Assembly: GCF_963921235.1 (NCBI RefSeq)
Contig: NC_086097.1
Span: 16,802,001 to 16,866,000 of the forward strand
Reading direction: 5' to 3'
Source of the DNA: Mobula hypostoma
Lineage: Eukaryota
Length of the DNA stretch: 64,000 bases
Shown: piece by piece, positions 7,835-60,400 of the stretch
Numbering within the stretch: the first letter of the stretch is position 1
How the letters are laid out: every line of letters begins with the position of its first letter
Notes under the pieces: generated by a model
Database searches by the model: none
Told to the model about the DNA's origin: nothing
What the model saw: only the letters and a program-made list of their open reading frames with translations
Program-made: the position numbers and the translations under genes

Positions 7835-9322
7835 CACTAGACACTAGAATACTACAGCACAGTACAGGCCCTTCGGCCCTCGATGTTGTGTCAGTCCATA
7901 TATTCCTTAAAAAAATGTACTAAACCCACACTACCCCGTATCCCTCTATTTTTCTTTCATCTATATGCCTGTCTGAGAGGCTCTTAAATACCCCTAATGT
8001 TTTAGCCTCCACCACCATCCCTGGCAAGTCATTCCAGGCAGCTACAACCCCCCATGTAAAAAAACGTATCCCGATGTCTCCCCTAAACTTCCCTCCATTA
8101 ACTTTGTACATAAATCTAATGTTTGCTATTCCTGCCCTGGGAAACAGGTACTAGCTATCCACCCTATCTATGCCTCTCATAATCTTTTAGACCTCTCATC
8201 CTTCTACACTCCAAAGAGAAAAGTCCCAGCTCTGCTAACCTTGCCTCATAAGGCTTGTTTTCCAATCCAGGCAACATGCTGGTAAATCTCCTCTGCACCC
8301 TCTCCATAGCTTCCACATCCTTCCTATAATGAGGTGAGCAGAACCGCACACAATACTCTACGTGTGGTCTCACCAGAGATTTGTAGAGTTGCAACATGCC
8401 GTCTCTACCCTTGAACTCAATCCCCCCATTAATGAAGCCTAGCATCCCATAAGGCTTCTTAACTATCCTATCAACCTGTGCGGCGATCTTGAGGGATGTA
8501 TGGATTTGAACCCCAAGGTCCCTCTGTCATTCCACACTCTTAAGTAACCTACCACTAACCCTGTACTCAGCCTTTTGGTTTGCCCTTCCAAAATTCATCA
8601 CCTCACACTTATCCGGATTGAACTTCATCTGCGGCTTTTTTGCCCAACTCATCATCCTGTCTATATCCTCTTGTAACCTTCAACAACCTACAACTCAATC
8701 CACCACTACTCCAATCTTCATGTCATCTGCAAACTTACCCATCCTTCTGCCTCTTCATCCAGGTAATTTATAAAAATCATAAAGAGCAGGAGTCCCAGGA
8801 CAGATCCTTGCGGCACTCCACTAGTCACCGACCTCCAGGCAGAATACTTTCCTTCCACTACTACCCTCTGCTTTCTTCCTTTAAGCCAATTTTTTATCCA
8901 AACAGCCAAGGTTCCACTGATCCCATACCTCATGACTTTCTGGATGAGTCTCTCGTGGAGGACCTTGTCAAATGCCTTACTAAAATCCATGTAGACCACA
9001 TCTACTGCCCTACCCTCATTAATTCCTTTTGTTACCTCTTCAAAACACTCAGTTAGGCTCATGAGACACGACCTTCCCTTCACAAAGTCATGTTGACTAT
9101 CCTTGAGTAGATTGTACTTCTCCAAGTGCGTGAAGATCCTATTCTTAAGAATCCTTTCCAATAGTTTGCATACTACCGACATAAGACTCACTGGTCTGTA
9201 GTTCCCAGGATTCTCCCTATTACATTTTTTAAATAAGGGAACCACATTTGCCATTCTCCAGTCCTCCAGCACCTCCCCTGCAGCCAAAGAGGATTCCAAG
9301 ATCATAGCTACTGCTCCAGTAT
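7835..9322 (-). mobile_element. 5'-truncated CR1 LINE, frameshifted RT
   Basis: ORF pieces 8718-9320 ([28 protein letters not shown]), 8164-8445 (LVRPHVEYC) and 7920-8111; CR1 3' UTR. Confidence 0.95.
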
Positions 9323-9681
9323 CCCTGCCCAGTAGAGATGATGGGCTTAAGAGTGAGAAGAGTAATTTATAAAATAGAAGATGTGTGGAGAGAAGAAAGC
9401 CCTTTGATGGGGTGGAAGTAGCTCTTGTATTTCGGCAAAAAAACTTTGATCTTGGACTCCTGTATCTTCTCCCCTGTGGTTTGATGCCAAAGGCAATCAT
9501 GAACATTCCCTTTTCCTTATTGACTCTGTTGATCAGTGTCAAATATTAAAGGCAATTTTTAATGTCATGAGTCTGCAGCAGAGAGAGCTCTGTTAGTGAT
9601 TACACTCTGTCTCACTTCATCATCGATTTTATTATTCATTTTACAGCACCTACTTTGGACCTATAACCTTTCCTCCAACAA

Positions 9682-10797
9682 TATTGGGGGTAAGGTATTG
9701 GTGTGGGTGGAGAATTGGTTAGCAGACAGGAAGCAAAGAGTGGGAATAAACGGGACCTTTTCAGAATGGCAGGCGGTGACTAGTGGGGTACCGCAAGGCT
9801 CAGTGCTGGGACCCCAGTTGTTTACAATATATATTAATGACTTGGATGAGGGAATTAAATGCAGCATCTCCAAGTTTGCGGATGACACGAAGCTGGGTGG
9901 CAGTGTTAGCAGTGAGGAGGATGCTAAGAGGATGCAGGGTGACTTGGATAGGTTGGGTGAGTGGGCAAACTCATGGCAGATGCAATTTAATGTGGATAAA
10001 TGTGAAGTTATCCACTTTGGTGGCAAAAATAGGAAAACAGATTATTATCTGAATGGTGGCCGATTAGGAAAAGGGGAGGTGCAACGAGACCTGGGTGTCA
10101 TTATACACCAGTCATTGAAAGTGGGCATGCAGGTACAGCAGGCGGTGAAAAAGGCGAACGGTATGCTGGCATTTATAGCGAGAGGATTCGAGTACAGGAG
10201 CAGGGAGGTACTACTGCAGTTGTACAAGGCCGTGGTGAGACCACACCTGGAGTATTGTGTGCAGTTTGGGTCCCCTAATCTGAGGAAAGACATCTTTGCC
10301 ATAGAGGGAGTACAAAGAAGGTTCACCAGATTGATTCCTGGGATGGCAGGTCTTTCATATGAAGAAAGACTGGATGAACTGGGCTTGTACTCGTTGGAAT
10401 TTAGAAGATTGAGGGGGGATCTGATTGAAACGTATAAGATCCTAAAGGGATTGGACAGGCTAGATGCGGGAAGATTGTTCCCGATGTTGGGGAGGTCTAG
10501 AACGAGGGGTCACAGTTTGAGGATAGAGGGGAAGCCTTTTAGGACCGAGGTTAGGAAAAACTTCTTCACACAGAGAGTGGTGAATCTGTGGAATTCTCTG
10601 CCACAGCAAACTGTTGAGGCCAGTTCATTAGCTATGTTTAAAAGGAAGTTAGATATGGCCCTTGTGGCTACAGGGGTCAGGGGGTATGGAGGGAAGGCTG
10701 GGTTCTGAGTTGGATGATCAGCCATGATCATAATAAATGGCGGTGCAGGCTCGAAGGGCCGAATGGCCTACTCCTGCACCTATTTTCTATGTTTCTA
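9682..10797 (+). mobile_element. Very young 5'-truncated CR1 LINE
   Basis: Open frame to the stop at 10708 ([28 protein letters not shown]); (tctatgtt)n tail. Confidence 0.97.
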
Positions 10798-11684: not shown

Positions 11685-14350
11685 TCAAAGTTCAAAATAA
11701 ACTTTATTATCAAAGTACATATATATCACCATATACAACCCTGAGATTCATTTTCTTGTCAGCATACTCAACAAATTTATAGAATAATAACTATAACAGA
11801 ATCTATGAAAGACTGCCCAATTAGGGTGTTCAATCACAATGCAGAAAACAATAAACTATGCAAATACAAAGAGAAAAAACAATAATAAAAAAAACAATGA
11901 CTATCAAGGTCATGATACGAAAATTCCTTGAAAGTGAGTTAATTAGTTGTGGGGACATTTCAATGATGGGGAAAGTGAAGCTGAGTGAAGTTATCCCTTT
12001 TGGTTTGAGAGCCTGATGGTTGAGAGGTACCAACTGATCCTGAACTTGGTGGTGTGAGTCCTGAGGCTTCCCGTACCTTCTTCCTGATGGCAGCAGCAAG
12101 AAGAGAGCATGTCCTCGGTGGTGTGGGTCCCTGTGACAGTGCTTCATATAGAAACATAGAAACATAGAAACATAGAAAATAGGTGCAGGAGTAGGCCATT
12201 CGGCCCTTCGAGCCTGCACCGCCATTTATTATGATCATGGCTGATCATCCAACTCAGAACCCAGCCTTCCCTCCATACCCCCTGACCCCTGTAGCCACAA
12301 GGGCCATATCTAACTTCCTTTTAAACATAGCTAATGAACTGGCCTCAACAGTTTGCTGTGGCAGAGAATTCCACAGATTCACCACTCTCTGTGTGAAGAA
12401 GTTTTTCCTAACCTCGGTCCTAAAAGGCTTCCCCTCTATCCTCAAACTGTGACCCCTCGTTCTAGACCTCCCCAACATCGGGAACAATCTTCCCGCATCT
12501 AGCCTGTCCAATCCCTTTAGGATCTTATACGTTTCAATCAGATCCCCCCTCAATCTTCTAAATTCCAACGAGTACAAGCCCAGTTCATCCAGTCTTTCTT
12601 CATATGAAAGACCTGCCATCCCAGGAATCAATCTGGTGAACCTTCTTTGTACTCCCTCTATGGCAAAGATGTCTTTCCTCAGATTAGGGGACCAAAACTG
12701 CACACAATACTCCAGGTGTGGTCTCACCAAGGCCTTGTACAACTGCAGTAGTACCTCCCTGCTCCTGTACTCGAATCCTCTCGCTATAAATGCCAGCATA
12801 CCGTTCGCCTTTTTCACCGCCTGCTGTACCTGCATGCCCACTTTCAATGACTGGTGTATAATGACACCCAGGTCTCGTTGCACCTCCCCTTTTCCTAATC
12901 GGCCACCATTCAGATAATAATCTGTTTTCCTATTTTTGCCACCAAAGTGGATAACTTCACATTTATCCACATTAAATTGCATCTGCCATGAGTTTGCCCA
13001 CTCACCCAACCTATCCAAGTCACCCTGCATCCTCTTAGCATCCTCCTCACTGCTAACACTGCCACCCAGCTTCGTGTCATCCGCAAACTTGGAGATGCTG
13101 CATTTAATTCCCTCATCCAAGTCATTAATATATATTGTAAACAACTGGGGTCCCAGCACTGAGCCTTGCGGTACCCCACTAGTCACCGCCTGCCATTCTG
13201 AAAAGGTCCCGTTTATTCCCACTCTTTGCTTCCTGTCTGCTAACCAATTCTCCACCCACACCAATACCTTACCCCCAATACCGTGTGCTTTAAGTTTGCA
13301 CACTAATCTCCTATGTGGGACCTTGTCAAAAGCCTTTTGAAAATCCAAATATACCACATCCACTGGTTCTCCCCTATCCACTCTACTAGTTACATCCTCA
13401 AAAAATTCTATGAGATTCGTCAGACATGATTTTCCTTTCACAAATCCATGCTGACTTTGTCCGATCATTTCACCGCTTTCCAAATGTGCTGTTATCACAT
13501 CTTTGATAACTGACTCCAGCAGTTTCCCCACCACCGACGTTAGGCTAACCGGCCTATAATTCCCCGGTTTCTCTCTCCCTCCTTTTTTAAAAAGTGGGGT
13601 TACATTAGCCACCCTCCAATCCTCAGGAACTAGTCCAGAATCTAACGAGTTTTGAAAAATTATCACTAATGCATCCACTATTTCTTGGGCCACATATACA
13701 GTAGATGTGCTCAATGGAGGGGAGGGCTTTACCTATGATGGACCTGGGCTGTATCCGTTACTTTTTGTAAGATTTTCCATTCAAGGGCGTCGGTGTTTCT
13801 ATATCAGGCTGTAATGCAACCAGTCAATATACTCTCAACTACACATCTATGGAAGTTTGTCAAAGTTTTGGATGTCGTGCCAAATCTTCGCGAAATCCTG
13901 CTGTGCTTTCTTTATAATCGCACTTACAAGCTGGGCCCAGGACAGGCCTCTGAAATAACACAGAGGCATTCACAGTTGCTGTCCCTCTCTGTCTCCGATC
14001 CTCCAATGAGGACTGGCTCATTGAACTCTGGTATCCTCCTCCTGAAGTCTAAAATCACCTCTTTGCTCTTGCTGACAATGAGTGAGAGGTGGTTGTCGTG
14101 GCACTACTCGGCCACGTTTCCAATCTCCCTCCTAAATGCTGATTCATCAGCACCCTTAATTCAGCCTCTGACAGTGGTGCCATCAGCAAACATCAGCATT
14201 GGAGCTGCTGCTGACCACACAGTCACCAAGTGTAAAGTGAGCAGAGCAGAGCAGCGGGGTAAGCACACAACCTAGTGGTGCACCTGTGCTGAGCGAGATT
14301 GAGGAGAAGATGGTTTTGCTAATTCAAAATAACTGGGGTCTGCAAGTGAA
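11685..14350 (-). mobile_element. Rex1/Babar 3' portion interrupted by CR1 (12149-13690)
   Basis: HPGHALF..LPSGRRY-like motif, 3' UTR ending in ttgaactttga, FADGTTV motif near 14170-14190; host reads cagtgcttcat|gtagatgtgctc across the insertion. Confidence 0.85.
12149..13690 (-). mobile_element. Very young 5'-truncated CR1 LINE with a complete open RT domain
   Basis: ORF 12254-13690 without stops; (tagaaaca)n tail; almost identical to 9682-10797. Confidence 0.97.
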
Positions 14351-25812: not shown

Positions 25813-27030
25813 AGTATCTGCTCTCAGGATGAGGCTTTTCAATCTAGGATGAGGGAGATGTCTTCTTTTTTTAAAGAAAGGGGCTTCCCTTCCTCCACTA
25901 TCAACTCTGCTCTTAAACGCATCTCCCCCATTTCACGTACATCTGCTCTCACTCCATCCTCCTGCCACCCCACTAGGAATAGGGTTCCCCTGGTCCTCAC
26001 CTACCATCCCACCAGCCTCCGGGTCCAACATATTATTCTCCGTAACTTCCGCCACCTCCAACGGGATCCCACCACTAAGCACATCTTTCCCTCCCCACCT
26101 GTCTCTGCATTCTGCAGGGATCACTCCCTACGCAACTCCCTTGTCCATTCGTCCCCCCCCATCCCTCCCCATTGATCTCTCTCCTGGCACTTATCCGTGT
26201 AAGCGGGACAAGTGCTACACATGCCCTTACACTTCCTCCCTTACCATCATTCAGGGCCCCAAACAGTCCTTCCAGGTGAGGCAACACTTCACCTGTGAGT
26301 CGACTGGGGTGATATACTGCATCCGGTGCTCCTGATGTGGCCTTTTATATATTGGCGAGACCCGACGCAGACTGGGAGACTGCTTTGCTGAACACCTACG
26401 CTCTGTCCGCCAGAGAAAGCAGGATCTCCCAGTGGCCACACATTTTAATTCCACATCTCATTCCCATTCTGACATGTCTATCTATGGCCTCCTCTACTGT
26501 AAAGATGAAGCCACACTCAGGTTGGAGGAACAACACCTTATATTCCGTCTGCGTAGCCTCCAACCTGATGGCATGAACATCGACTTCTCTAACTTCCGCT
26601 AATGCCTCACCTCCCCCTCGTACCCCATCTGTTACTTATTTTTATACACACATTCTTTCTCTCACTCTCCTTTTTCTCCTTCTGTCCCTCTGAATATACC
26701 CCTTGCCCATCCTCTGGGTCCCCCCCACCTTGTCTTTCTTCCTGGACCTCCTGTCCCATGATCCTCTTGTATCCCTTTTGCCTATCACCTGTCCAGCTCT
26801 TGACTCCATCCCTCCCCGTCCTGTCTTCTCCTATCATTTTGGATCTCCCCATCCCCCTCCAACTTTCAAATCCCTTACTCACTCTTCCTTCAGTTAGTCC
26901 TGATGAAGGGTCTCGGCCTGAAACGTCGACTGCACCTCTTCCTAGAGATGCCGCCTGGCCTGCTGCGTTCACCAGCAACTTTGATGTGTGTTGCTTGAAT
27001 TTCCAGCATCTGCAGAATTCCTGTTGTTTG
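25813..27030 (+). mobile_element. Young 5'-truncated Penelope-like element (RT C-terminus, GIY-YIG endonuclease, 3' pLTR with hammerhead)
   Basis: ICSQDEAF..RVPLVLTYHP..GTYPCKRDKCYTC..FTCESTGVIYCIRCS*CGLLYIGET..HFN..LQPDGMNIDFSNFR, stop at 26600-26602; one frameshift and one internal stop seen. Confidence 0.95.
26896..26931 (+). ncRNA. Minimal type I hammerhead ribozyme motif, intact
   Basis: AGTC/GACT stem I, CTGATGA, AGG-gtctcgg-CCT stem II, GAAA, palindromic ACGT stem III, GTC cleavage triplet (predicted cut after 26927). Confidence 0.85.
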
Positions 27031-28139
27031 ACTAGAGAATGGTGTTATATATGACTTTTTTGAATGTCATCCCAAGAGCAAATGAATTTGAGGATTCATC
27101 TGACTTCTTGACTGTGGACCTTTCATTAGTTTAACATGTAATTTGCATTTCATATAATTAATTGTATCTACAATTGTACTTGCCTGTATTTATTTAAGGA
27201 TATATTACTTTTGGTAGTGAATGTGTTAATCTTTTTCGGTCATAAAATTCACAAGCCAGGCTCACAAGTTTGCGCACAGATGGTTATACAAAGCAGGAAA
27301 TCCTGATTAGGTTGTCAGGATATTTCATATTCCTTAAAACAATGGGATTAATGGTTTTGGTGGAGTTTTCTGACAGTTTTTCTGTTGTAGGATCTTGCTG
27401 ATATAATTAAATCATACTCTGATACAATAGGTGCATCAATCATACTCGAGAGGGAGGGGAGGCAGTAGCCACAGGTGGCAGAAGGTTTCATCTTAATTAC
27501 AAATGTTTCCTTCCCTTTGTTACAATTTTCTGCAGGAAAGTGGGTAGCAGTCATCCAGAAGAAGAAAAACACATTTTCACATTTAACTCAGAGTGGGGAT
27601 TTCACCATGATAATTATAAATAATGCGACACCAATCAAAATGGAACAAGTGTCTTCTTCCCATTGTTGTTTATCTCTCATAATGTTAATGAAAGCCTCAA
27701 TATAAGTGTAAGAACTTCTTCATGCTTCCAGGGTGACCGCTCTGTCAGCATTACAGCATGTTTATGTAATAAAAAAAACTATTTTTGAATCATTTCCACA
27801 TACTACATATCAACCTTTCAGCAAGATGAGATCTGTGTCCAATTAAAGATCTCTTCCAACAATGTGTATGATTGGAATATGGTTGTTTTCTTTTTCTGCC
27901 TTTGAATCCTTGTACAAAAATTATTCACCTCCGATCTCACTACTAGTATCGTGAGATGGCCAAGATTTAGGAACTTTTATGGCATCTTGGGTTTCCAATG
28001 CTTTTTGTTTTCAGTGCTTGTGCTGATATTTCTGTTGACTTAGGATATAGCTAGGACATCTGGTTTTCTAATTGTTTCAATATCAGCTATACACATCTTT
28101 TTAAAAAAATCATTTGCAATGCATAACGATCACTATATA

Positions 28140-30223: not shown

Positions 30224-30444
30224 CGCAAACAGGAATTCTGCAGATGCTGGAAATTCAAGCAACACACATCAAAGTTGCTGGTGAACGCAGCAGGCCAGGC
30301 AGCATCTGTAGGAAGAGGTGCAGTCGATGTTCCAGGCCGAGACCCTTCGTCAGGACTGACGAAGGGTCTCGGCCTGAAACGTCGACTGCCCCTCTTCCTA
30401 CAGATGCTGCCTGGCCTGCTGCGTTCACCAGCAACTTTGATGTT
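30224..30444. mobile_element. 221-bp PLE-derived fold-back mini-insertion with the junction inside the hammerhead
   Basis: Inverted arms pivot at caggactgacgaag; 13-bp TSD tataaaatacaaa at 30211-30223 and 30445-30457. Confidence 0.92.
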
Positions 30445-36830: not shown

Positions 36831-37105
36831 GCCACAAGCTGCTGAGGTGATTGAACCTTGTAGCATGGGATCTAAGGCTCCTGTACCTTACACTGGCAGC
36901 AGTGAGAGGGAGATTGGTCAAAATTACATCTTCCTTTTCTTTCAGCTGTGGTTCTGCCACTGTTGGAGCCTGTGATCTACATTCGGTGGTGTATTTTTGG
37001 GCTGATTGAGCGATCTGGCACTCACTCTGAGAGGGTTCCATGAGCTTCGAGTGAAGTGTGTGTCTTCAGGCCAAGAAGCCTGGAAATAGGACACCATTTC
37101 TTGCT

Positions 37106-37480
37106 ACACACATCAAAGTTGCTGGTGAATGCAGCAGGCCAGGCAGCATCTCGAGGAAGACGTACAGTTGACGTGTCAGGACTAACTGAAGGAAGAGTTA
37201 GTAAGAGATTTGAAAGTGGGAGGGGGAGGGGAAGATCCAAAATGATAGAAGACAGGAGGGGGAGGGATGGAGCCAAGAGCTGGACAGGTGATTGGCAAAA
37301 GGGGTATGACAGGATCATGGGACAGGAGGCCCAGGGAGAAGGAAAAGGGGGAGGGGGGGAAAAACCCAGAGGATGGGCAAGGGGTATAGACAGAGGGACA
37401 GAGGGAGAAAAAGGAGAGAGAGAGAAAGAATGTGTGTATAAAAATAAATAGCGGATGGGGTACGAGGGGGAGGTGGGGCA
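37106..37480 (-). mobile_element. Solo PLE 3' UTR/pLTR with hammerhead core deletion
   Basis: Matches 26603-26990; 8-bp TSD ttcttgct at 37098-37105 and 37481-37488. Confidence 0.9.
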
Positions 37481-37984
37481 TTCTTGCTGATCTTGCTGAT
37501 TAAGGTGCTGAGGAAGACTGAAATCATCAAAGCGAGTGGGTGCTTAGCATTGTCTACCAGGCTGTCGCTGCTCCCGAAGGAAGGTGTCTGTGTGTGATGG
37601 TTTCTTTCTCCCTGTTGCTCGCTGCTCCTAAAGGGTGCCTGTGCTCAAATGGGCTCTCTCTCGCTCAATGCTTTTGGAGGATTGTGCTGAAGTCCTGGAT
37701 CTTGGGCAAGGTTTAATCAATGCGGTTTGTGAATTGGACTCTGTAGATCAGGTTATGATGAGTTTCCGGTTTCTGGTCGCTCCTTTTTTTTGCTATTTTG
37801 TCCGACTTTGATCGGGGTGGTCTGCAGATAACCAACGACACAGACCTGAATATACCTGGACTCTTTTGATTTTCTGCTTTATATTCTGTGTTGTTTGCTT
37901 GTTTTTTTTGTTGCCGTTTGTGCGACTTGTTTTTTTTCTTTTGCGTGCGAAGGAGTTTTTCTTTGAACGAGGTTTGATAGTTTT

Positions 37985-40359
37985 AGAAACATAGAAACAT
38001 AGAAAATAGGTGCAGGAGTAGGCCATTCGTCCCTTCAAGCCTGCACCGCTATTTATTATGATCATGGCTGAGCATCCAACTCAGAACCCCGCCCCAGCCT
38101 TCCCTCCATACTCCCTGATCCCCGTAGCCACAAGGGCCATATCTAACTCCCTCTTAAATATAGCCAATGAACTGGCCTCAACTGTTTCCTGTGGCAGAGA
38201 ATTCCACAGATTCACCACTCTCTGTGTGAAGAAGTTTTTCCTAATCTCGGTCCTAAAAGGCTTCCCCTCTATCCTCAAACTGTGGCCCCTCGTTCTGGAC
38301 TTCCCCAACATCGGGAACAATCTTCCTGCATCTAGCCTGTCCAATCCCTTTAGGATTTTATACGTTTCAATCAGATCCCCCCTCAATCTTCTAAATTCCA
38401 ACGAGTACAAACCCAGTTCATCCAGTCTTTCTTCATATGCAAGTCCTGCCATCCCAGGAATCAATCTGGTGAACCTTCTTTGTACTCCCTCTATGGCAAG
38501 GATGTCTTTCCTCAGATTAGGGGACCAAAACTGCACACAATACTCCAGGTGTGGTCTCACCAAGGCCTTGTACAACTGCAGTAGTACCTCCCTGCTCCTG
38601 TACTCGAATCCTCTCACTATAAATGCCAGGATACCATTCGCCTTTTTCACTGCCTGCTGTACCTGCATGCCCACTTTCAATGACTGGTGTATAATGACAC
38701 CCAGGTCTTGTTGCACCTCCCCTTTTCCTAATCGGCCACCATTCAGATAATAATCTGTTTTCCTATTTTTGCCACCAAAGTGGATAACTTCACATTTATC
38801 CACATTAAATTGCATCTGCCATGAATTTGCCCACTCACCCAACCTATCCAAGTCACCCTGCATCCTCTTAGCATCCTCCTCACAGCTAACACTGCCACCC
38901 AGCTTCGTGTCATCCGCAAACTTGGAGATGCTGCATTCAATTCCCTCATCCAAGTTATTAATATATATTGTAAACAACTGGGGTCCCAGCACTGAGCCTT
39001 GCGGTATCCCACTAGTCACCGCCTGCCATTCTGAAAAGGTCCCGTTTATTCCCACTCTTTGCTTCCTGTCTGCTAACCAATTCTCTATCCACATCAGTAC
39101 CTTACCCCCAATACCGTGTGCTTTAAGTTTGCACACTAATCTCCTGTGTGGGACCTTGTCAAAAGCCTTTTGAAAATCCAAATATACCACATCCACTGGT
39201 TCTCCCCTATCCACTCTACTAGTTACATCCTCAAAAAATTCTATGAGATTCGTCAGACATGATTTTCCTTTCACAAATCCATGCTGACTTTGTCTGATGA
39301 TTTCACCGCTTTCCAAATGTGCTGTTATCACATCCTTGATAACTGACTCCAGCAGTTTCCCCACCACCGACGTTAGGCTAACCGGTCTATAATTCCCCGG
39401 TTTCTCTCTCCCTCCTTTTTTAAAAAGTGGGGTTACATTAGCCACCCTCCAATCCTCAGGAACTAGTCCAGAATCTAACGAGTTTTGAAAAATTATCACT
39501 AATGCATCCACTATTTCTTGGGCTACTTCCTTAAGCACTCTAGGATGCAGACCATCTGGCCCTGGGGATTTATCTGCCTTCAATCCCTTCAATTTACCTA
39601 ACACCACTTCCCTACTAACATGTATTTCACTCAGTTCCTCCATCTCACTGGACCCTCTGTCCCCTACTATTTCTGGAAGATTATTTATGTCCTCAGTGAA
39701 GACAGAACCAAAGTAATTATTCAATTGGTCTGCCATGTCCTTGCTCCCCATAATCAATTCACCTGTTTCTGTCTGCAGGGGACCTACATTTGTCTTTACC
39801 AGTCTTTTCCTTTTTACATATCTATAAAAGCTTTTACAGTCAGTTTTTATGTTCCCTGCCAGTTTTCTCTCATAATCTTTTTTCCCCTTCCTAATTAAGC
39901 CCTTTGTCCTCCTCTGCTGAACTCTGAATTTCTCCCAGTCCTCAGGTGAGCCACTTTCTCTGGCTAATTTGTATGCTTCTTCTTTGGAATTGATACTATC
40001 CCTAATTTCTCTTGTCAGCCACGGGTGCACTAGCTTCCCTGATTTATTCTTTTGCCAAACTGGGATGAACAATTGTTGTAGTTCATCCATGCAACCTTTA
40101 AATGCTTGCCATTGCATATCCACCGTCAACCCTTTAAGTGTCATTTGCCAGTCTATCTTAGCTAATTCACGTCTCATACCTTCAAAGTTACCCCGCTTTA
40201 AGTTCAGAACCTTTGTTTCTGAATTAACTATATCACTCTCCATCTTAATGAAGAATTCCATCATATTATGGTCACTCTTACCCAAGAGGCCTCTCACGAC
40301 AAGATCGCTAATTAACCCTTCCTCATTGCTCAAAACCCAGTCCAGAATAGCCTGCTCTC
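37985..40359 (-). mobile_element. Young 5'-truncated CR1 LINE
   Basis: tagtttt duplicated at 37978-37984 and 40360-40366; same subfamily as the 9682 and 12149 copies. Confidence 0.97.
38081..40359 (-). CDS. CR1 ORF2 fragment (end of APE through RT to C-terminus), ~760 codons without a stop, lacking its native start
   Basis: ILDWVL..GKSDHN, KSPGPDGLHPRVLKE, YLDFQKAFDKV, QGSVLGP, FADDTK; the first ~22 aa of the track ORF come from flanking DNA. Confidence 0.85.
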
Positions 40360-40903
40360 TAGTTTTCTTTGTTTCATGACTGTCAGTGGGGAAGACAAAT
40401 TTCAGGGTTGCATACTGCATACACACTTTGAAAATAAACGTATTTTGAATCTTTGAAACTCAGGCAGGTGGTGCAAAAAACGCACTTGCTTTCCGCTCTC
40501 ATCCTTGTCAATTTTCATCCTGCTCGATGCTTTAATCAGCGCAGAGTAACGGAGCTGATCCTGGGTTTGCCCTCAGTCATTAGGGATCGATGACTACATC
40601 TGCACGCTTTGCTCTCAACCTTGCCGAATCCCCCAGGAGATCAAAAAGCACCAATCATTTAGTCAATGCAGAAACATATCCGCAAAATAGAAATTACACT
40701 CTGCAATCAATTGCAGTTCAGAAGAAGTATATTTAAAAGAAGAAGTGTATCTAATAGTTTGATAAGCTGTCTGCAGGATGTTGCATTGGTCATTGACATC
40801 ACCTTGCCTTCAAGAAAATGAATCTCAAGGTAGTATATGATGACGTATATGTACATTGATAATAAATTTACTTTGACTTTGACTATTTGACATTTCTAAG
40901 GCA

Positions 40904-52737: not shown

Positions 52738-53836
52738 AATGGATTCAGCAGTGGCTGGATGGGAGACGCCAGAGAGTAGTGGTGGATAATTGTTTGTCAG
52801 ATTGGAGGCCGGTGACTAGTGGTGTGCCTCAGGAATCTGTACCGGGTTCAATGTTGTTTGTCATATATATTAATGATCTGGATGATGGGGTGGTAAATTG
52901 GATTAGTAAGTATGCAGATGATACTAAGATAGGTGGAGTTGTGGATAATGAAGTAGGTTTTCAAAACTTGCAGAGAGATTTAGGCCAGTTAGAAGAGTGG
53001 GCTGAAAGATGGCAGATGGAGTTTAATGCTGATAAATGTGAGGTGCTACATTTTGGTAGGACTAATCAAAATAGGACATACATGGTAAATGGTAGGGCAT
53101 TGAAGAATGCAATAGAACAGAGGGATCTAGGAATTATGGTGCATAGTTCCCTGAAGGTGGAATCTCATGTGGATAGGATGGTGAAGAAAGCTTTTGGTAT
53201 GCTGGCCTTTATAAGTCTGAGCATTGAGTATAGGAGTTGGGATGTAATGTTGAAATTGTACAAGGCATTGGTAAGGCCAAGTTTGGAGTATTATATACAG
53301 TTCTGGTCACCGAATTATAGGAAGGATGTCAACAAAATTGAGAGAGTACAGAGAAGATTTACTAAAATGTTACCTGGGTTTCATCTCCTAAGTTACAGAG
53401 AAAGGTTGAACAAGTTGGGTCTTTATTCTTTGGAACGTAGAAGGTTGAGGGGGGAATTGATAGAGGTATTTAAAATTATGAGGGGGATAGATAGAGTTGA
53501 CATGGATAGGCTTTTTCCATTGAGAGTGGAGGAGATTCAAACAAGAGGACATGAGTTAAGAGTTAAAGGGCAAAAGTTTAGGGGTAACATGAGGGGGAAC
53601 TTCTTTACTCAGAGAGTGGTAGCTGTGTGGAACGAGCTTCCAGCAGAAGTGGTTGAGGCAGGTTTGATGTTGTCATTTAAAGTTAAATTGGATAGCTATA
53701 TGGACAGGAAAGGAATGGAGGGTTATGGGCTGAGTGCAGGTCAGTGGGACTAGGAAAGAGTAAGAGTTCAGCATGGACTAGAAAGGCCGAGATGGCCTGT
53801 TTCCGTGCTGTAATTGTTATATGGTTATGGTTCTAT
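52738..53836 (+). mobile_element. 5'-truncated CR1 with open frame to 53753
   Basis: SGVPQESVPG, KYADDTK, VRPSLEY; (tatggt)n tail. Confidence 0.95.
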
Positions 53837-55824: not shown

Positions 55825-56115
55825 ACTTCTTCAGCCCTTTACCTCTTCCACTTTTTACACCCCCCAGCTTCTCATGTCGTTCCTCCTCCCCCCACCCACA
55901 CACCTTCCCCTCACCTGGTCTCACCAGTCAACTGCCAGCTTGTACTCCTCTCACTCACTCCACTCTCTTATTCTGGCTTCTTCCCCTTCCTCTCCAGTGC
56001 TGATGAATGGTTCATTTGACCTCCATTGACGCTGCCTGACTTGCTGAGTTCCTCCAATACTTTGTGTGTGTGTGTGTTGCCCAAGATTTCCAGCATCTGT
56101 AGAATCTCTCATGTT
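55825..56115 (+). mobile_element. Old PLE 3' UTR
   Basis: Homologous to 31600-31893; hammerhead partly deleted. Confidence 0.8.
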
Positions 56116-56441
56116 CAATCTTACCACATTCTCACTTATGAGGAAGCAGAATTTAGCGATACAACCAGACATCTGGACCACCGAAATAGGGCACTAGCTT
56201 CATCTGGCAATTATGGAGCATGGAAGTCTCCTCACATTCTTTTCATCCAATCCTATTATCACGCCTGGCTCTCCCTTTATCCCCCAGGTGCCTGTCCAGC
56301 TTTCCTGTGCGTAAAGCATGTCCCACATACAAAGTGTGCAGAATTTGCAGAAGCAGAGAGAGTTGTCCTGAAAGATTAGCAACACACATAAATGTTGCTG
56401 GTGAATGCAGCAGGCCAGGCAGCATCTCTAGGAAGAGGTGC

Positions 56442-56477
56442 AGTCGACGTTTCAGGCCGAGACCCTTCGTCAGGACT
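56442..56477 (-). ncRNA. Minimal type I hammerhead motif, intact
   Basis: Reverse complement reads AGTC CTGACGA AGG gtctcgg CCT GAAA CG TC GACT. Confidence 0.82.
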
Positions 56478-56508
56478 AACTGAAGAAAGAGCGAGTAAGG
56501 GATCCCTT

Positions 56509-56544
56509 AGTCCTGACGAAGGGTCTCGGCCTGAAACGTCGACT
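56509..56544 (+). ncRNA. Minimal type I hammerhead motif, intact
   Basis: AGTC CTGACGA AGG gtctcgg CCT GAAA CG TC GACT; predicted cut after 56540. Confidence 0.82.
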
Positions 56545-56735
56545 GCACCTCTTCCTAGAGATGCTGCCTGGCCTGTTGCGTTCACCAGCAACTTTGATGT
56601 ATGTTGCTTGAATTTCCAGCATCTGCAGAATTCCTGTTGTCTCCTGAAAGAATGTCTGCTTTATCTGAGATTAAAACACAATGATCAAATTTTACATGGT
56701 CCCATCACACTTAAATACCGTAACCTTATGCCTTT

Positions 56736-57011
56736 GGCATGGTAGTGTAGCAGTTAGCACAACTCTTTACAGTACCAGCGACCGGGGTTCAATTCCCACC
56801 ACTGCCTGTAAGGAGTTTGTACATTCTCCACATGACTGCGTGTGTTTCATTAGGGTGCTCTGGGTTCCTCCCACAGACCAAAGATGTACTGGTTAGCAGG
56901 CTAATTGGTCATTGTAAATTGACCTGTGATTACGCTGGGGTTAAATTAGAGGATGCTGGGTTACACAGCTTGAGGGGCTGGAAGGGCCTACTTTGCATGG
57001 TACCTCAATAA
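56736..57011 (+). mobile_element. HE1-like tRNA SINE
   Basis: A-box-like tggtagtgtagcag, B-box ggttcaattcc, V-SINE-like core, CR1-like tail. Confidence 0.88.
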
Positions 57012-58012: not shown

Positions 58013-60400
58013 TGGAATTGGTTTATTATTGTCACATGTACCAAGATACAGTGAAAAACTTGTCTTCCATATTGTTTATGCAGATCAGATCATTAAACAG
58101 AGCATTGAGCTAGAAAAAGGTAAACTATAACGATGCAGAATAAAGTGCAACAGCTATGGAGAGAGTACAGTGCAGGTAAACAATAAGTTGCAAGATCTTA
58201 ACAAGGAAGACTGGGAAATCAAAAGTCCAACTTATTATACTAGGGAACCATTTAATAGTCTTATAACAGTGTGGTAGAAGCTGTCCTTGAGCATGGTGGT
58301 ACATGTTTTCAGGCTTTTGGCTCTTCTGTCCGATGGAAGAGTGGAGAAAAGAAAGTGTCCAGGGTAGCTGGGGTATTTTTATATGCCGGCTTCTTTTCTG
58401 AGACAGCAAGAAGTACAGACAGAGTCCACTGAGGGGAAGCTGATTTCTGTGATGTGCTGACCTGTGCAGTTTTTTGCAGTCTCAGCAGAATAGTTCCTAT
58501 ACCAGATGGGGCGTTTTCTATGGGGCATCAATAAATATTGATGAAGATGTATGGGAACATGTCAATTTTCTTTAATCTCTTGAGGAAGTAGAAGTGTTGA
58601 TGAGCTTTCTTGGCTGTGGTTGCTGCCAGACAAGTTGTTGGTGATGATCACTCCTAGTATCTTGAAGCTTCTAAGCCTCTCAATCTCAACACCTTTGACG
58701 TAGACAGGAGCATGTGCACCATGCCCTTTCCTGAAGCCAATGACCATCCCTTCTGTCTTGCTGACATTGAGGAAAAGGTATTGTCTCGATATCACGTTAC
58801 TAAGCTCTCTATCTCCAGTTAGACTGACCTCAGTGGTTGGGAAGATGTTGGAGTCAATTGATAAGGATGTGGTTTCAGCATACTTGGAGGTGCACGATAA
58901 AATCGGCCAAAGTCAGCATGGTTTCCTTGAGGGAAAATCTTGCCTGTCAACCCTGTTGGAATTCTTTGAAGAAACAATAAACAGGATAGACAAAGGAGAA
59001 CCGATGGATGTTATGTACTTGGGTTTTCAGAAGGCGTTTGACAAGGTGCCACTCATGAGGCTGCTTAACATGTTAAGAGCCCATTCTATAACAGGAAAGA
59101 TATTAGCATGGATAGAGCATTGGCTGATTGGATGGAGGCAAAGAGTGGGAGTAAAGGGAGCCTTTTCTGGTTGGCTGCCAGTGAATCATGGTGTTCCACA
59201 GCAGTCTGTGTTGGGACCGCCTCTTTTTATCTTATGCGTCAATGATTTGGATGACCGAATTGATGGCTTTGTGGCCAAGTTTGCAGACGACACAAAGACA
59301 CTTGGAGGTGCAGGAAATGTTGAGGAAGTAGAGAGGCTACACAAGGACTTAGGCAGATAAGGGAAATGGACAAAGAAGTTGATGGAATACAGTGTCAAGA
59401 AATGTATGGTCGTGCACTTTCGCAGAAGAAATAAAAGAAATAAAAGCACAGACTATTTTCTAAATGGAGAGAAAATTCAAAAGTCTTCTGAGGTGCAAAG
59501 GAACTTGGGAGTTCTCATGCAGAATTCCTTAAAGGTTAATTTGCGGTCGAGTCAGTGGTGAGGAAGGCAAATGCAATGTTAGCATTAATTCGAGAGGACT
59601 GGAATATAAAAACAAGCATATAATGTTGAGGTTTTATAAGGCACTGGTGGGGCCTCACTTGGAGTATTGTGAGCAATTTTGGGCCCTTTATCTAAGAAAG
59701 GATGTGCTGACATTGGAGAGGAAAAGTCTTAGAACCATGAAATGAATTTGGGATTGAAAGGCTTATCATATGAGGAGCGTTTGATGCCTCTGGGCATCTA
59801 CTCACGGGAATTCAGAAGAATAAGGGAGGATCTCATTGAAATCTATTGAATGTTGAAAGGCCTCAATAGTGTGGATGTGGAGAAGATGTTTCCTGTGGTG
59901 GGGAAACCTACGACCAGACAACACAGCCTTAGAATAGAGAGACGTCCATTTACAATAGAGATGATGTGAAATTTCTTTAGCCAAAGAGTGGCAAATGTGT
60001 GGAACTCGGCTGTGGAGACCAAGCCTTTGGGTATATTTAAGGCAGAGGTTGATAGTTTCTTGATTAGTAAGGGCATGAAGGGTTATGGGGTGAAGGCAGG
60101 AAATTGGGACTGAGAGGGAAATGGATCAGTCATGATGAAATGGCCTAATTCTGTTCCTATATCTTATGGTCTTCCTGTAATTTATCATTTTTTGACATGG
60201 CTGACTATGATGGTACCATCTGCAAACTTATAGATGGAATCGGGTTATGCAGTAATGAGTACACAGGCGATAGAATATGGGGCTGAGGGCACAACTTTGT
60301 GGAGCGGCAGCGTTTAGAATAATCGTGGCAAATGTGTTGTTGGCCTGTCCTTACAGATTGCGGTCTGACAGACAGGAAGTCAAGGATCCAGTTGCATTGA
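58013..60400 (-). mobile_element. Old Rex1/Babar split by CR1 (pieces 58013-58814 and 60173-60400)
   Basis: LNVSKTEGMVIGFRK, SFKILG, KFADGT; 3' UTR like 14440-14675. Confidence 0.8.
58815..60172 (+). mobile_element. Decayed 5'-truncated CR1
   Basis: PVRLTSVVGKMLES..KFADDTK..PHLEYC; tail tcttatggtctt. Confidence 0.93.

What the first reader, a model, noticed from the sequence alone, without database searches (positions are those of the whole stretch)
56376..56641. 266-bp hairpin retro-insertion with an intact hammerhead ribozyme on both strands
Seen: two inverted copies of the PLE 3' terminus flanked by a 10-bp TSD. Each has a complete core (CTGACGA...GAAA-CG-TC, stems I and II paired) at 56442-56477(-) and 56509-56544(+). 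Established: Penelope-like elements carry minimal type I hammerheads in their pLTRs, and short palindromic stem III versions act as dimers. Inference: a transcript crossing the site in either direction carries one sense ribozyme plus its own antisense arm. The unit could be an orientation-independent cleavage cassette, a self-inhibited switch or a dsRNA source. It may also be a non-autonomous element mobilised by the young Penelope family seen at 25813.
Basis: partly seen in the sequence, partly recalled or inferred. Interest (0 to 1): 0.8.

Follow-up and report, generated by a model that had tools for sequence, protein, structure and literature searches.

The report
Head-to-head Penelope retrotransposon tail insertion
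This 266-bp hairpin is an ordinary dead by-product of how Penelope-like retrotransposons integrate, one of thousands in this genome, and its two hammerhead motifs would be locked in double-stranded RNA if transcribed.

Summary
Positions 56376-56641 hold two inverted copies of a Penelope-like element (PLE) 3' end. They are flanked by a 10-bp duplication, and each copy has a complete minimal hammerhead motif.

It is not a special device. The genome holds 42,891 exact copies of this 28-nt motif and at least 3,381 head-to-head pairs, each with its own centre. A second pair lies in this window at 30226-30443.

In 40 of 40 pairs chosen without regard to their ends, one arm carries the ~33-nt PLE "tail" and the other lacks it. 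31 of 40 have a 12-17-bp target duplication.

The exact central junction is unique. Its one near-twin has unrelated flanks and the tail on the other arm.

The published properties of PLEs explain the structure: both target strands are nicked and extended, and there are two reverse-transcription start sites.

A read-through transcript folds into a -205 kcal/mol hairpin. Forming the hammerhead costs +68 kcal/mol. Rfam's hammerhead models do not match it.

The kind is already described in print. Interest is low. The strict one-tail rule may interest PLE specialists.

The parts
56366..56375 (.). left copy of the target-site duplication TCCTGAAAGA
   Evidence: (family D5)
56378..56503 (-). left arm: PLE 3' fragment (ref 371-496) in antisense orientation. 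It ends at the inner reverse-transcription start site and has no tail.
   Evidence: 94.4% to the copy at 26500-27045
56441..56478 (-). minimal hammerhead motif of the left arm (helix I, CUGACGA, helix II, GAAA-CG-UC; C17 at 56446)
56480..56506 (.). 27-nt centre between the paired arms. It is made of the further 5' reach of the left arm (to ref 371) joined to the right arm through the 12-nt palindrome AAGGGATCCCTT. The junction is unique in the genome.
56507..56640 (+). right arm: PLE 3' fragment (ref 395-528) in sense orientation, with tail
   Evidence: 97.0%
56508..56545 (+). minimal hammerhead motif of the right arm (predicted cleavage 56540/56541)
56588..56607 (+). stem-loop (GCAAC...GUUGC) at whose 3' edge the untailed arms of this family end; taken as the inner RT start site (inference)
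   Evidence: compared with PMC11167929
56609..56641 (+). 33-nt 'tail', present on this arm only
56642..56651 (.). right copy of the target-site duplication
30226..30443 (.). second, independent head-to-head pair of the same family. It has a 2-nt centre, the tail on the left arm and a 13-bp duplication TATAAAATACAAA.
25816..27030 (+). 5'-truncated copy of the parent PLE: end of the RT-EN reading frame (stop at 26600-26602, in-frame TGA at 26333-26335), 3' UTR, hammerhead motif at 26900, tail to about 27030

Best explanation
The locus is the scar of one integration event of a Penelope-like retrotransposon. Its RT-endonuclease nicked both strands of the target about 10 bp apart (shown only by the duplication). 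Each freed 3' end primed reverse transcription of the element's RNA, one at the inner start site (ref ~496, left arm) and one ~33 nt further 3' (ref ~530, right arm, hence the one-sided tail). Both cDNAs stopped shortly after copying the hammerhead region. Their 3' ends annealed at a short self-complementary stretch and were filled in on each other, giving a head-to-head repeat with an idiosyncratic centre. The two hammerhead motifs are passive cargo. They sit ~70-100 nt from the RT start sites, so even very short cDNAs include them. Nothing at this locus needs them to work. In a read-through transcript they would be buried in a ~100-bp duplex. Shown here: the anatomy, the family membership, the uniqueness of the centre, the genome-wide class and its regularities, and the folding energies. 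Inferred: the order of events, priming from both strands, and annealing of two separate cDNAs rather than fold-back of one.
For: Anatomy.

Parent is a PLE. [quoted passage not shown]

Size of the class. There are 42,891 exact 28-nt motifs (reversed-pattern control 0). Head-to-head pairs with both 13-nt cores exact number 1,950 (spacer 0-30), 959 (31-60, which includes this locus) and 472 (61-90), 3,381 in all, with controls 0.

Unbiased sample. I took the first 20 listed loci of each of the first two spacer classes, 40 in all. In 40 of 40, one arm ends at ref 523-546 (tail). The other ends at ref 424-509 (32 at 485-509, 8 further in). 31 of 40 have an exact 12-17-bp duplication.

Three more pairs, found among 20 motifs that had no exact partner, also have one tailed and one untailed arm. 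The 17 single copies split 9 tailed to 8 untailed. With independent choice at about 0.5, 43 mixed pairs out of 43 would have a chance of about 1e-13 (my arithmetic).

Co-insertion. Arms of one locus are 97.2% alike, against 94.6% between loci. 0 of 5,000 random draws reach the within-locus mean. 33 of 41 loci were used; 8 were dropped because their short arm ends before ref 485.

Centres. 10 of 40 have 0-2 unpaired nt. That is too small for the loop of an intramolecular fold-back, which favours two cDNAs.

Literature. An inverted 5'-truncated copy and a 30-40-bp tail at one end are typical of PLEs (PMC8557442 and PMC3846280, passages read). A purified PLE protein cleaves and extends both strands, and starts RT at two adjacent internal sites whose spacing is the tail. 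Its hammerhead is not needed for insertion (PMC11167929, main text read).

Absence elsewhere. One contig in each of two runs of other coded organisms joins 56150-56323 to 56640-56794 with 10 letters between (table 8).
Against: The in vitro study saw no difference in start-site use between top and bottom strands (PMC11167929). The strict one-tail rule is therefore not predicted by it and needs an extra assumption, for example one RNA or one dimeric particle offering each site once.

Arkhipova et al. 2013 (PMC3846280) read palindromic inverted junctions as self-priming. 30 of 40 centres are 3 nt or longer and would fit that equally well.

Identical junction types recur at unrelated loci, for example the 2-nt 'GA' centre at six listed places and the twin of this locus 152 kb away. 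I attribute this to few possible end positions and to microhomology hot spots, but did not model it.

The contigs lacking the hairpin also lack 52 nt to its left (56324-56375), so they are not a clean empty site.

The Pfam scores for RT and GIY-YIG are below the curated cut-offs.

9 of 40 sampled pairs show no exact duplication of 12 bp or more.
Confidence: 0.8

Rival explanations
1. The second arm arose by self-priming. A single cDNA folded back on itself and copied itself, as proposed for palindromic PLE junctions. Only one target strand primed reverse transcription.
For: PMC3846280 (passage read) infers self-priming from palindromes at inverted junctions. 30 of 40 sampled centres are 3 nt or longer and could be fold-back loops. 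Arms of one locus are more alike than arms of different loci, as a self-copy would be. The centre of this locus (27 nt) is loop-sized.
Against: 10 of 40 centres are 0-2 nt, below the minimum hairpin loop. A self-copy should reproduce the outer end of the first arm, yet 43 of 43 pairs have unequal outer ends that fall at the two known start sites. Both strands are extended in vitro (PMC11167929).
Confidence: 0.15
2. The hairpin is itself a non-autonomous element. Its transcript is recognised by the PLE enzyme and copied as a unit, giving a family of hairpins.
For: One locus 152 kb away has the same junction with 1 mismatch in 23 nt. Several other junction types recur. About 1,473 first-look candidates resemble the whole 266 bp.
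Against: The exact junction is found once in the genome. The twin has unrelated flanks and the tail on the other arm relative to the asymmetric centre, which copying of one unit does not give. The listed junctions are mostly different from one another. Spacer counts fall smoothly (1,950, 959, 472), as expected of random truncation and not of a fixed unit.
Confidence: 0.03
3. The locus has been taken over by the host as a two-way self-cleaving cassette, a ribozyme switch, or a regulated source of double-stranded RNA.
For: All invariant core nucleotides are intact in both arms, and the arms are identical across the motif. A read-through RNA would form about 100 bp of near-perfect duplex, a plausible substrate for dsRNA pathways.
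Against: The intact cores are explained by youth: 42,891 identical motifs exist. The hammerhead fold costs +68 kcal/mol in the whole transcript, and core nucleotides are unpaired with probability 0.0006. Single minimal PLE hammerheads showed no cleavage in vitro (PMC4209133), and the anole PLE hammerhead cleaved only with its protein (PMC11167929). Only one sense copy is present per transcript direction. Among the window's stop-to-stop ORFs of 130 aa or more that I tested, I found RT fragments and no host gene. Contigs of two other organisms lack the hairpin.
Confidence: 0.04
4. Two separate insertions: a second PLE fragment landed exactly at the 5' end of an older one.
For: PLE endonuclease can target the element's own sequence (PMC11167929, main text read). 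An older PLE-tail fragment lies 260 bp upstream at 56028-56114.
Against: One duplication brackets the pair and none brackets a single arm. The arms are identical over ref 395-469. The same architecture recurs 3,381 times or more with the one-tail rule.
Confidence: 0.02

Closest known systems
Inverted pseudo-LTR / head-to-head 5'-truncated insertions of endonuclease-containing Penelope-like elements (Evgen'ev and Arkhipova 2005 and Arkhipova 2006 as cited in, and Arkhipova et al. 2013 PMC3846280; Craig et al. 2021 PMC8557442)
   Same: Inverted copy abutting the 5' end; palindromic or near-palindromic junction; one short target duplication around the whole; a 30-40-bp tail on one of the two outer ends; a hammerhead motif near the 3' end.
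   Different: No internal element at all: both copies are cut down to 126 and 134 bp, so the insertion is only two facing 3' ends. The family is very large here (42,891 exact motifs).
Minimal hammerhead motifs of metazoan PLEs (Cervera and de la Pena 2014, PMC4209133)
   Same: Type I layout; short helix I (5 bp); an unpaired nucleotide between A9 and helix II; helix III reduced to A-U plus a palindromic CG, so activity would need a dimer; thousands of copies, mostly in truncated elements. That paper already notes pairs on opposite strands 100-700 bp apart.
   Different: Helix II is only 4 bp here (they describe 7-8 bp in Schistosoma). It closes with G-U instead of the conserved G10.1-C11.1. 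A 7,645-copy variant in this genome has the G-C pair. No Rfam model matches.
Two-site internal initiation and two-strand extension by the anole PLE protein PAc (Frangieh et al. 2024, PMC11167929)
   Same: Outer ends of arms fall at two places ~33 nt apart, next to a stem-loop. The hammerhead lies ~70-100 nt upstream of them. Both target strands appear to have primed synthesis.
   Different: In vitro, start-site use did not differ between strands. In this genome each pair uses each site exactly once (43 of 43).
Twin priming of human L1 (recalled from Ostertag and Kazazian 2001; not looked up here)
   Same: The second nicked strand primes on the same RNA, giving an inverted segment inside one target duplication.
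   Different: Twin priming inverts a different, adjoining part of the element. Here both arms are the same 3' part, so the product is a true palindrome.
Non-LTR retrozymes (PMC7229834, search listing only; bioRxiv 10.64898/2026.07.22.740005, abstract and passages)
   Same: Short hammerhead-bearing non-coding derivatives of PLE pseudo-LTRs.
   Different: Retrozymes are direct tandem repeats whose two sense ribozymes excise a circular RNA. This is an inverted pair with one sense ribozyme per strand.

Membership tests
Endonuclease-containing Penelope-like element (insertion product) | single reading frame with reverse transcriptase followed by a C-terminal GIY-YIG endonuclease in the parent family | tested here: met
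   Sister copies of 25816-27030: L072 672-aa frame RVT_1 19.1 bits (cut-off 29.6); L075 and L082 GIY-YIG 22.1 bits (cut-off 22.6), E 2e-4. Both are below Pfam's cut-offs but lie in the expected order in one frame. The window's own copy is split by an in-frame stop, and its pieces give no hit.
Endonuclease-containing Penelope-like element (insertion product) | inverted 5'-truncated copy abutting the insertion, the whole bounded by one target-site duplication | tested here: met
   class-wide, 31 of 40 have an exact 12-17-bp duplication
Endonuclease-containing Penelope-like element (insertion product) | 30-40-bp tail at one end only | tested here: met
   33 nt (56609-56641) on the right arm only; 40 of 40 and 3 of 3 further pairs
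Endonuclease-containing Penelope-like element (insertion product) | RT groups with telomerase RTs in phylogeny | not tested
   no tree was built
Hammerhead ribozyme, type I (PLE minimal form) | invariant core C3 U4 G5 A6 N7 G8 A9 / G12 A13 A14 / A15.1-U16.1 / H17 | tested here: met
   read; exact on both strands
Hammerhead ribozyme, type I (PLE minimal form) | helices I and II formed by flanking sequence | tested here: met
   helix I 5 bp and helix II 4 bp appear in the fold of the isolated motif. The same fold, however, pairs GACG of the core with CGUC at the cleavage site, and it is no better than shuffles (z -0.45). My descriptor scan gave helix I 4-6 bp and helix II 4 bp in 126 instances.
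Hammerhead ribozyme, type I (PLE minimal form) | G10.1-C11.1 closing pair of helix II | tested here: not met
   U at 11.1 (G-U) in this locus and in 42,891 copies; C at 11.1 in 7,645 copies elsewhere
Hammerhead ribozyme, type I (PLE minimal form) | stable helix III, or a second sense copy in cis to build it as a dimer | tested here: not met
   helix III is A-U plus the loop CG; the other copy is on the opposite strand
Hammerhead ribozyme, type I (PLE minimal form) | match to a curated covariance model (Rfam hammerhead families) | tested here: not met
   no hammerhead hit at gathering score, nor at E<=10 on 421 nt or 76 nt
Hammerhead ribozyme, type I (PLE minimal form) | self-cleavage at C17 | not testable with these tools
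   needs transcription and cleavage assays
Non-LTR retrozyme | direct tandem repeats, each with a sense hammerhead | tested here: not met
   the two copies are inverted
Replicating non-autonomous hairpin family (MITE- or SINE-like) | same internal sequence, including the centre, at many loci with different flanks | tested here: not met
   the exact junction occurs 1 time; there is 1 near-twin with the tail swapped; listed centres mostly differ from one another
L1-type twin-priming inversion | inverted and direct segments are adjoining, non-overlapping parts of the element | tested here: not met
   both arms cover the same ref 395-496

The most novel reading that the evidence does not exclude
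Every PLE integration may engage both reverse-transcription start sites once, one per target strand, on a single particle. The 'optional' tail would then be the fixed footprint of a two-primer mechanism. Single copies (half tailed, half not) would be events in which one of the two cDNAs was lost. The thousands of miniature head-to-head pairs in this genome would be a natural record of that mechanism. A by-product would be thousands of potential hairpin-RNA loci aimed at the element's own 3' end.
Probability: 0.3. Interest if true: 0.5.

Novelty: new member of a known kind. Interest (0 to 1): 0.22.

Why it matters
The locus itself matters little. It is a dead, non-coding scar in a repeat-rich region. 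Every feature of it (inverted pair, one-sided tail, duplication, minimal hammerhead) is already described for Penelope-like elements.

What could matter is the class. This genome holds at least 3,381 such pairs. In every one of the 43 I examined, the two outer ends use the two different start sites, while single copies are split about evenly. That is an in vivo regularity that the only biochemical study of a PLE enzyme does not predict. It could be used to test how the enzyme coordinates its two strands.

The finding is also a caution for ribozyme surveys. An intact hammerhead core inside an inverted repeat is not a candidate active ribozyme.

Tried and rejected
1. Rfam at gathering score on the whole window, and at E<=10 on 421 nt and on 76 nt, gave no hammerhead family. 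The strong 'MIR847' hit (57 bits, gathering 184) only reflects the long hairpin.

2. My first generic core pattern used a wrong fixed spacing and found nothing. It is not informative.

3. I first suspected a fixed RNA 5' end at ref 371, because many arms in the first 30 loci stopped there. This was a bias of searching with the whole hairpin. Pairs with spacers of 61-90 nt (472 loci) run past that point.

4. The 792-aa frame at 38081-40459(-), next to another copy of the PLE tail, is a LINE-type RT (RVT_1 118 bits). It has an endonuclease-like N-terminus by my reading and no GIY-YIG hit. It is not the parent.

5. Pfam on the window's own PLE frame pieces gave nothing. A GIY-YIG scan of the genome mostly returned other families; 5 of 10 loci contained the motif nearby.

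6. I looked for covariation in older copies. Only 8 diverged copies covering the motif were at hand, and they are decayed, so no test was possible.

7. RNA evidence: no RNA holder is listed. The four runs laid are contigs. X1 and X2 (guessed RNA) cover only the repeated parts and none of the unique flanks, so they say nothing about transcription of this locus.

8. Earlier notes of this scan: three look-ups, nothing.

Both were resent in allowed form.

Full report
**Observation**

The sequence is as described. The repeat finder gives inverted arms 56378-56479 and 56507-56608 (102 nt, 95% complementary, 27 nt apart). It also gives the direct repeat TCCTGAAAGA at 56366-56375 and 56642-56651.

The 31-nt stretch from CTGACGA to GTCGAC is present without mismatch at 56513-56543(+) and 56443-56473(-). 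Three more copies lie in the window, at 26900(+), 30323(-) and 30356(+). None is expected in shuffles.

Reading in hammerhead numbering gives:
- helix I, 5 bp;
- CUGACGA;
- one extra A;
- helix II, 4 bp with a CUCG loop;
- GAAA;
- a helix III of one A-U pair around the palindromic CG;
- C17 at 56540.

No Rfam hammerhead model matches. This holds at gathering score on the window and at E<=10 on 421 nt or 76 nt.

**What the arms are**

Both arms align to the 3' end of a longer copy at 26500-27045. The left arm covers ref 371-496 in antisense, and the right arm covers ref 395-528 in sense. That longer copy is a 5'-truncated element spanning 25816 to about 27030. Forty genomic copies match it at 95-97% identity from exactly its first base onward.

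Its reading frame ends at 26602 and contains an in-frame stop. Sister copies keep the frame open and show an RT region followed by a GIY-YIG domain. Pfam gives E 1.2e-3 and 1.9e-4, both just under the curated cut-offs. RT followed by a C-terminal GIY-YIG is the signature of endonuclease-containing Penelope-like elements.

The large RT frame at 38081-40459(-) is a LINE, not the parent.

**How common the structure is**

The assembly (3.48 Gb) holds 42,891 exact copies of the 28-nt motif. A variant with C instead of U before GAAA, which restores a G-C closing pair of helix II, has 7,645 copies.

Head-to-head pairs in which both 13-nt cores are exact number:
- 1,950 with 0-30 nt between the cores;
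- 959 with 31-60 nt, which includes this locus;
- 472 with 61-90 nt.

Reversed-pattern controls gave 0. A second pair lies in this very window at 30226-30443.

By my reading of the first 100 exact motifs on contig 1, about 15 sit in such short pairs. Ten more sit in minus/plus pairs 349-1,227 bp apart. Of 20 that had no exact partner, 3 were pairs with a degenerate or shorter partner.

**Is it a replicating hairpin?**

It occurs once with one mismatch, 152 kb away. That twin has unrelated flanks, and its tail is on the other arm relative to the asymmetric centre. The junctions listed are mostly different from one another, and the counts fall smoothly with spacer length.

Some junction types do recur at unrelated places. 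I attribute this to the small number of possible end positions and to short self-complementary words, but I did not model it.

**Regularities of the class**

I sampled the first 20 listed loci of each of the first two spacer classes. They were chosen only by their facing cores.
- 40 of 40 have one arm ending at ref 523-546 and the other at ref 424-509 (32 at 485-509, 8 further in).
- 31 of 40 have an exact duplication of 12-17 bp.
- The three extra pairs follow the same one-tail rule.
- The 17 single copies split 9 tailed to 8 untailed.
- Arms of one locus are more alike (97.2%) than arms of different loci (94.6%). 0 of 5,000 draws reach the within-locus mean. 33 of 41 loci were used.
- Ten of 40 centres have 0-2 unpaired nucleotides.

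At this locus the arms are identical from ref 395 to about 469, including the whole motif. They differ at five positions nearer the 3' end.

**Mechanism**

The literature already describes the parts.
- An inverted 5'-truncated copy next to the element, and a 30-40-bp tail at only one end, are described as typical of PLEs (PMC8557442 and PMC3846280, passages read).
- Cervera and de la Pena noted minimal hammerheads close together on opposite strands (PMC4209133, text read).
- The purified anole PLE protein cleaves and extends both target strands. It starts reverse transcription at two adjacent internal sites whose spacing equals the tail. It does not need the hammerhead for insertion (PMC11167929, main text read).

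Put together, the best account is as follows. There was one event with two staggered nicks. Two cDNAs were made, one from each start site. Both stopped early, and their ends joined at a microhomology and were filled in.

The near-zero centres argue for two cDNAs rather than a fold-back of one. The one-tail rule argues that the two primings are coordinated. Both points are inferences. Self-priming, as proposed in PMC3846280, remains a live rival for the step that makes the second arm.

**The ribozymes**

The motif matches the published minimal PLE hammerhead in layout. Its helix II is short and G-U-closed, and its helix III could exist only as a dimer. Each transcript direction offers one sense copy, so no dimer can form in cis.

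The whole locus folds at -205.8 kcal/mol (+) and -204.4 kcal/mol (-), with z about -25. Enforcing the hammerhead costs +68 kcal/mol. The core is unpaired with probability 0.0006, against 0.60 in a single arm. Even the isolated motif prefers a fold that pairs part of the core with the cleavage site, and it is no more stable than shuffles.

Published tests found no cleavage by single minimal motifs (PMC4209133), and cleavage only with protein for the anole element (PMC11167929). The intact cores are therefore best explained by the youth of the insertion, not by selection at this site.

**Context and age**

Among the window's stop-to-stop ORFs of 130 aa or more that I tested, I found reverse-transcriptase fragments and no host gene. 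One contig in each of two runs from other coded organisms joins the left and right flanks with 10 letters between them. These contigs lack the hairpin and also 52 nt to its left. That fits a lineage-specific insertion but is not a clean empty site. No RNA evidence for or against transcription could be obtained.

**Verdict**

The functional readings are not supported. The kind is already described. The only point with some wider value is the strict one-tail rule across thousands of natural pairs.

Noticed in passing
window 30226-30443: A second head-to-head pair of the same PLE tail. The two hammerhead cores are separated by only 2 nt, the duplication is 13 bp (TATAAAATACAAA), and the tail is on the left arm. 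The same 2-nt junction recurs at five other listed places on contig 1.
   Followed up: partly
window 26333-26335 within 25816-27030: The window's PLE copy has an in-frame TGA inside the GIY-YIG region. Several sister copies elsewhere keep the frame open.
   Followed up: partly
window 37103-37482 (-): An older copy of the PLE 3' region (84.5% to ref 102-495). An 18-nt internal deletion removes helix II and GAAA of the hammerhead. It ends at the untailed site.
   Followed up: no
window 38081-40459 (-): A 792-aa open frame of a LINE-type reverse transcriptase (RVT_1 118 bits). Further RT fragments lie at 8718-9545, 9563-10708, 12254-13732, 52740-53753 and 58704-59360. The window is very repeat-rich.
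   Followed up: partly
window 56028-56114: A fragment of a more distant relative of the PLE tail (70-83% to 56560-56640), 260 bp upstream of the hairpin in the same orientation as the right arm.
   Followed up: no
window 56324-56375: 52 nt left of the hairpin are also missing from the contigs of two other organisms that bridge the site. They contain a 9-nt match (TGCAGAATT) to the tail. Whether they came in with the insertion or were deleted elsewhere is unexplained.
   Followed up: no
window 56737-56830: A highly repeated element 90 bp downstream of the hairpin. I read it (unchecked) as a tRNA-derived SINE head. Depth in the laid runs is thousands-fold above the unique flanks.
   Followed up: no
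ref 531-546 (window 27031-27045); L002, L017, L066: A few copies continue 12-15 nt past the usual tail end with the same sequence as the window copy. The template RNA therefore runs beyond both start sites, as internal initiation predicts.
   Followed up: no
genome-wide: The hammerhead exists in two abundant states at position 11.1: U in 42,891 exact copies and C in 7,645. This is a one-sided change that keeps helix II paired (G-U against G-C). The more prolific state has the weaker pair.
   Followed up: partly
L097 298-332: A single long copy carries a 31-nt inverted duplicate of its own 5' end (element positions 644-674 facing 676). This is a miniature fold-back at the 5' junction rather than a second full arm.
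   Followed up: no
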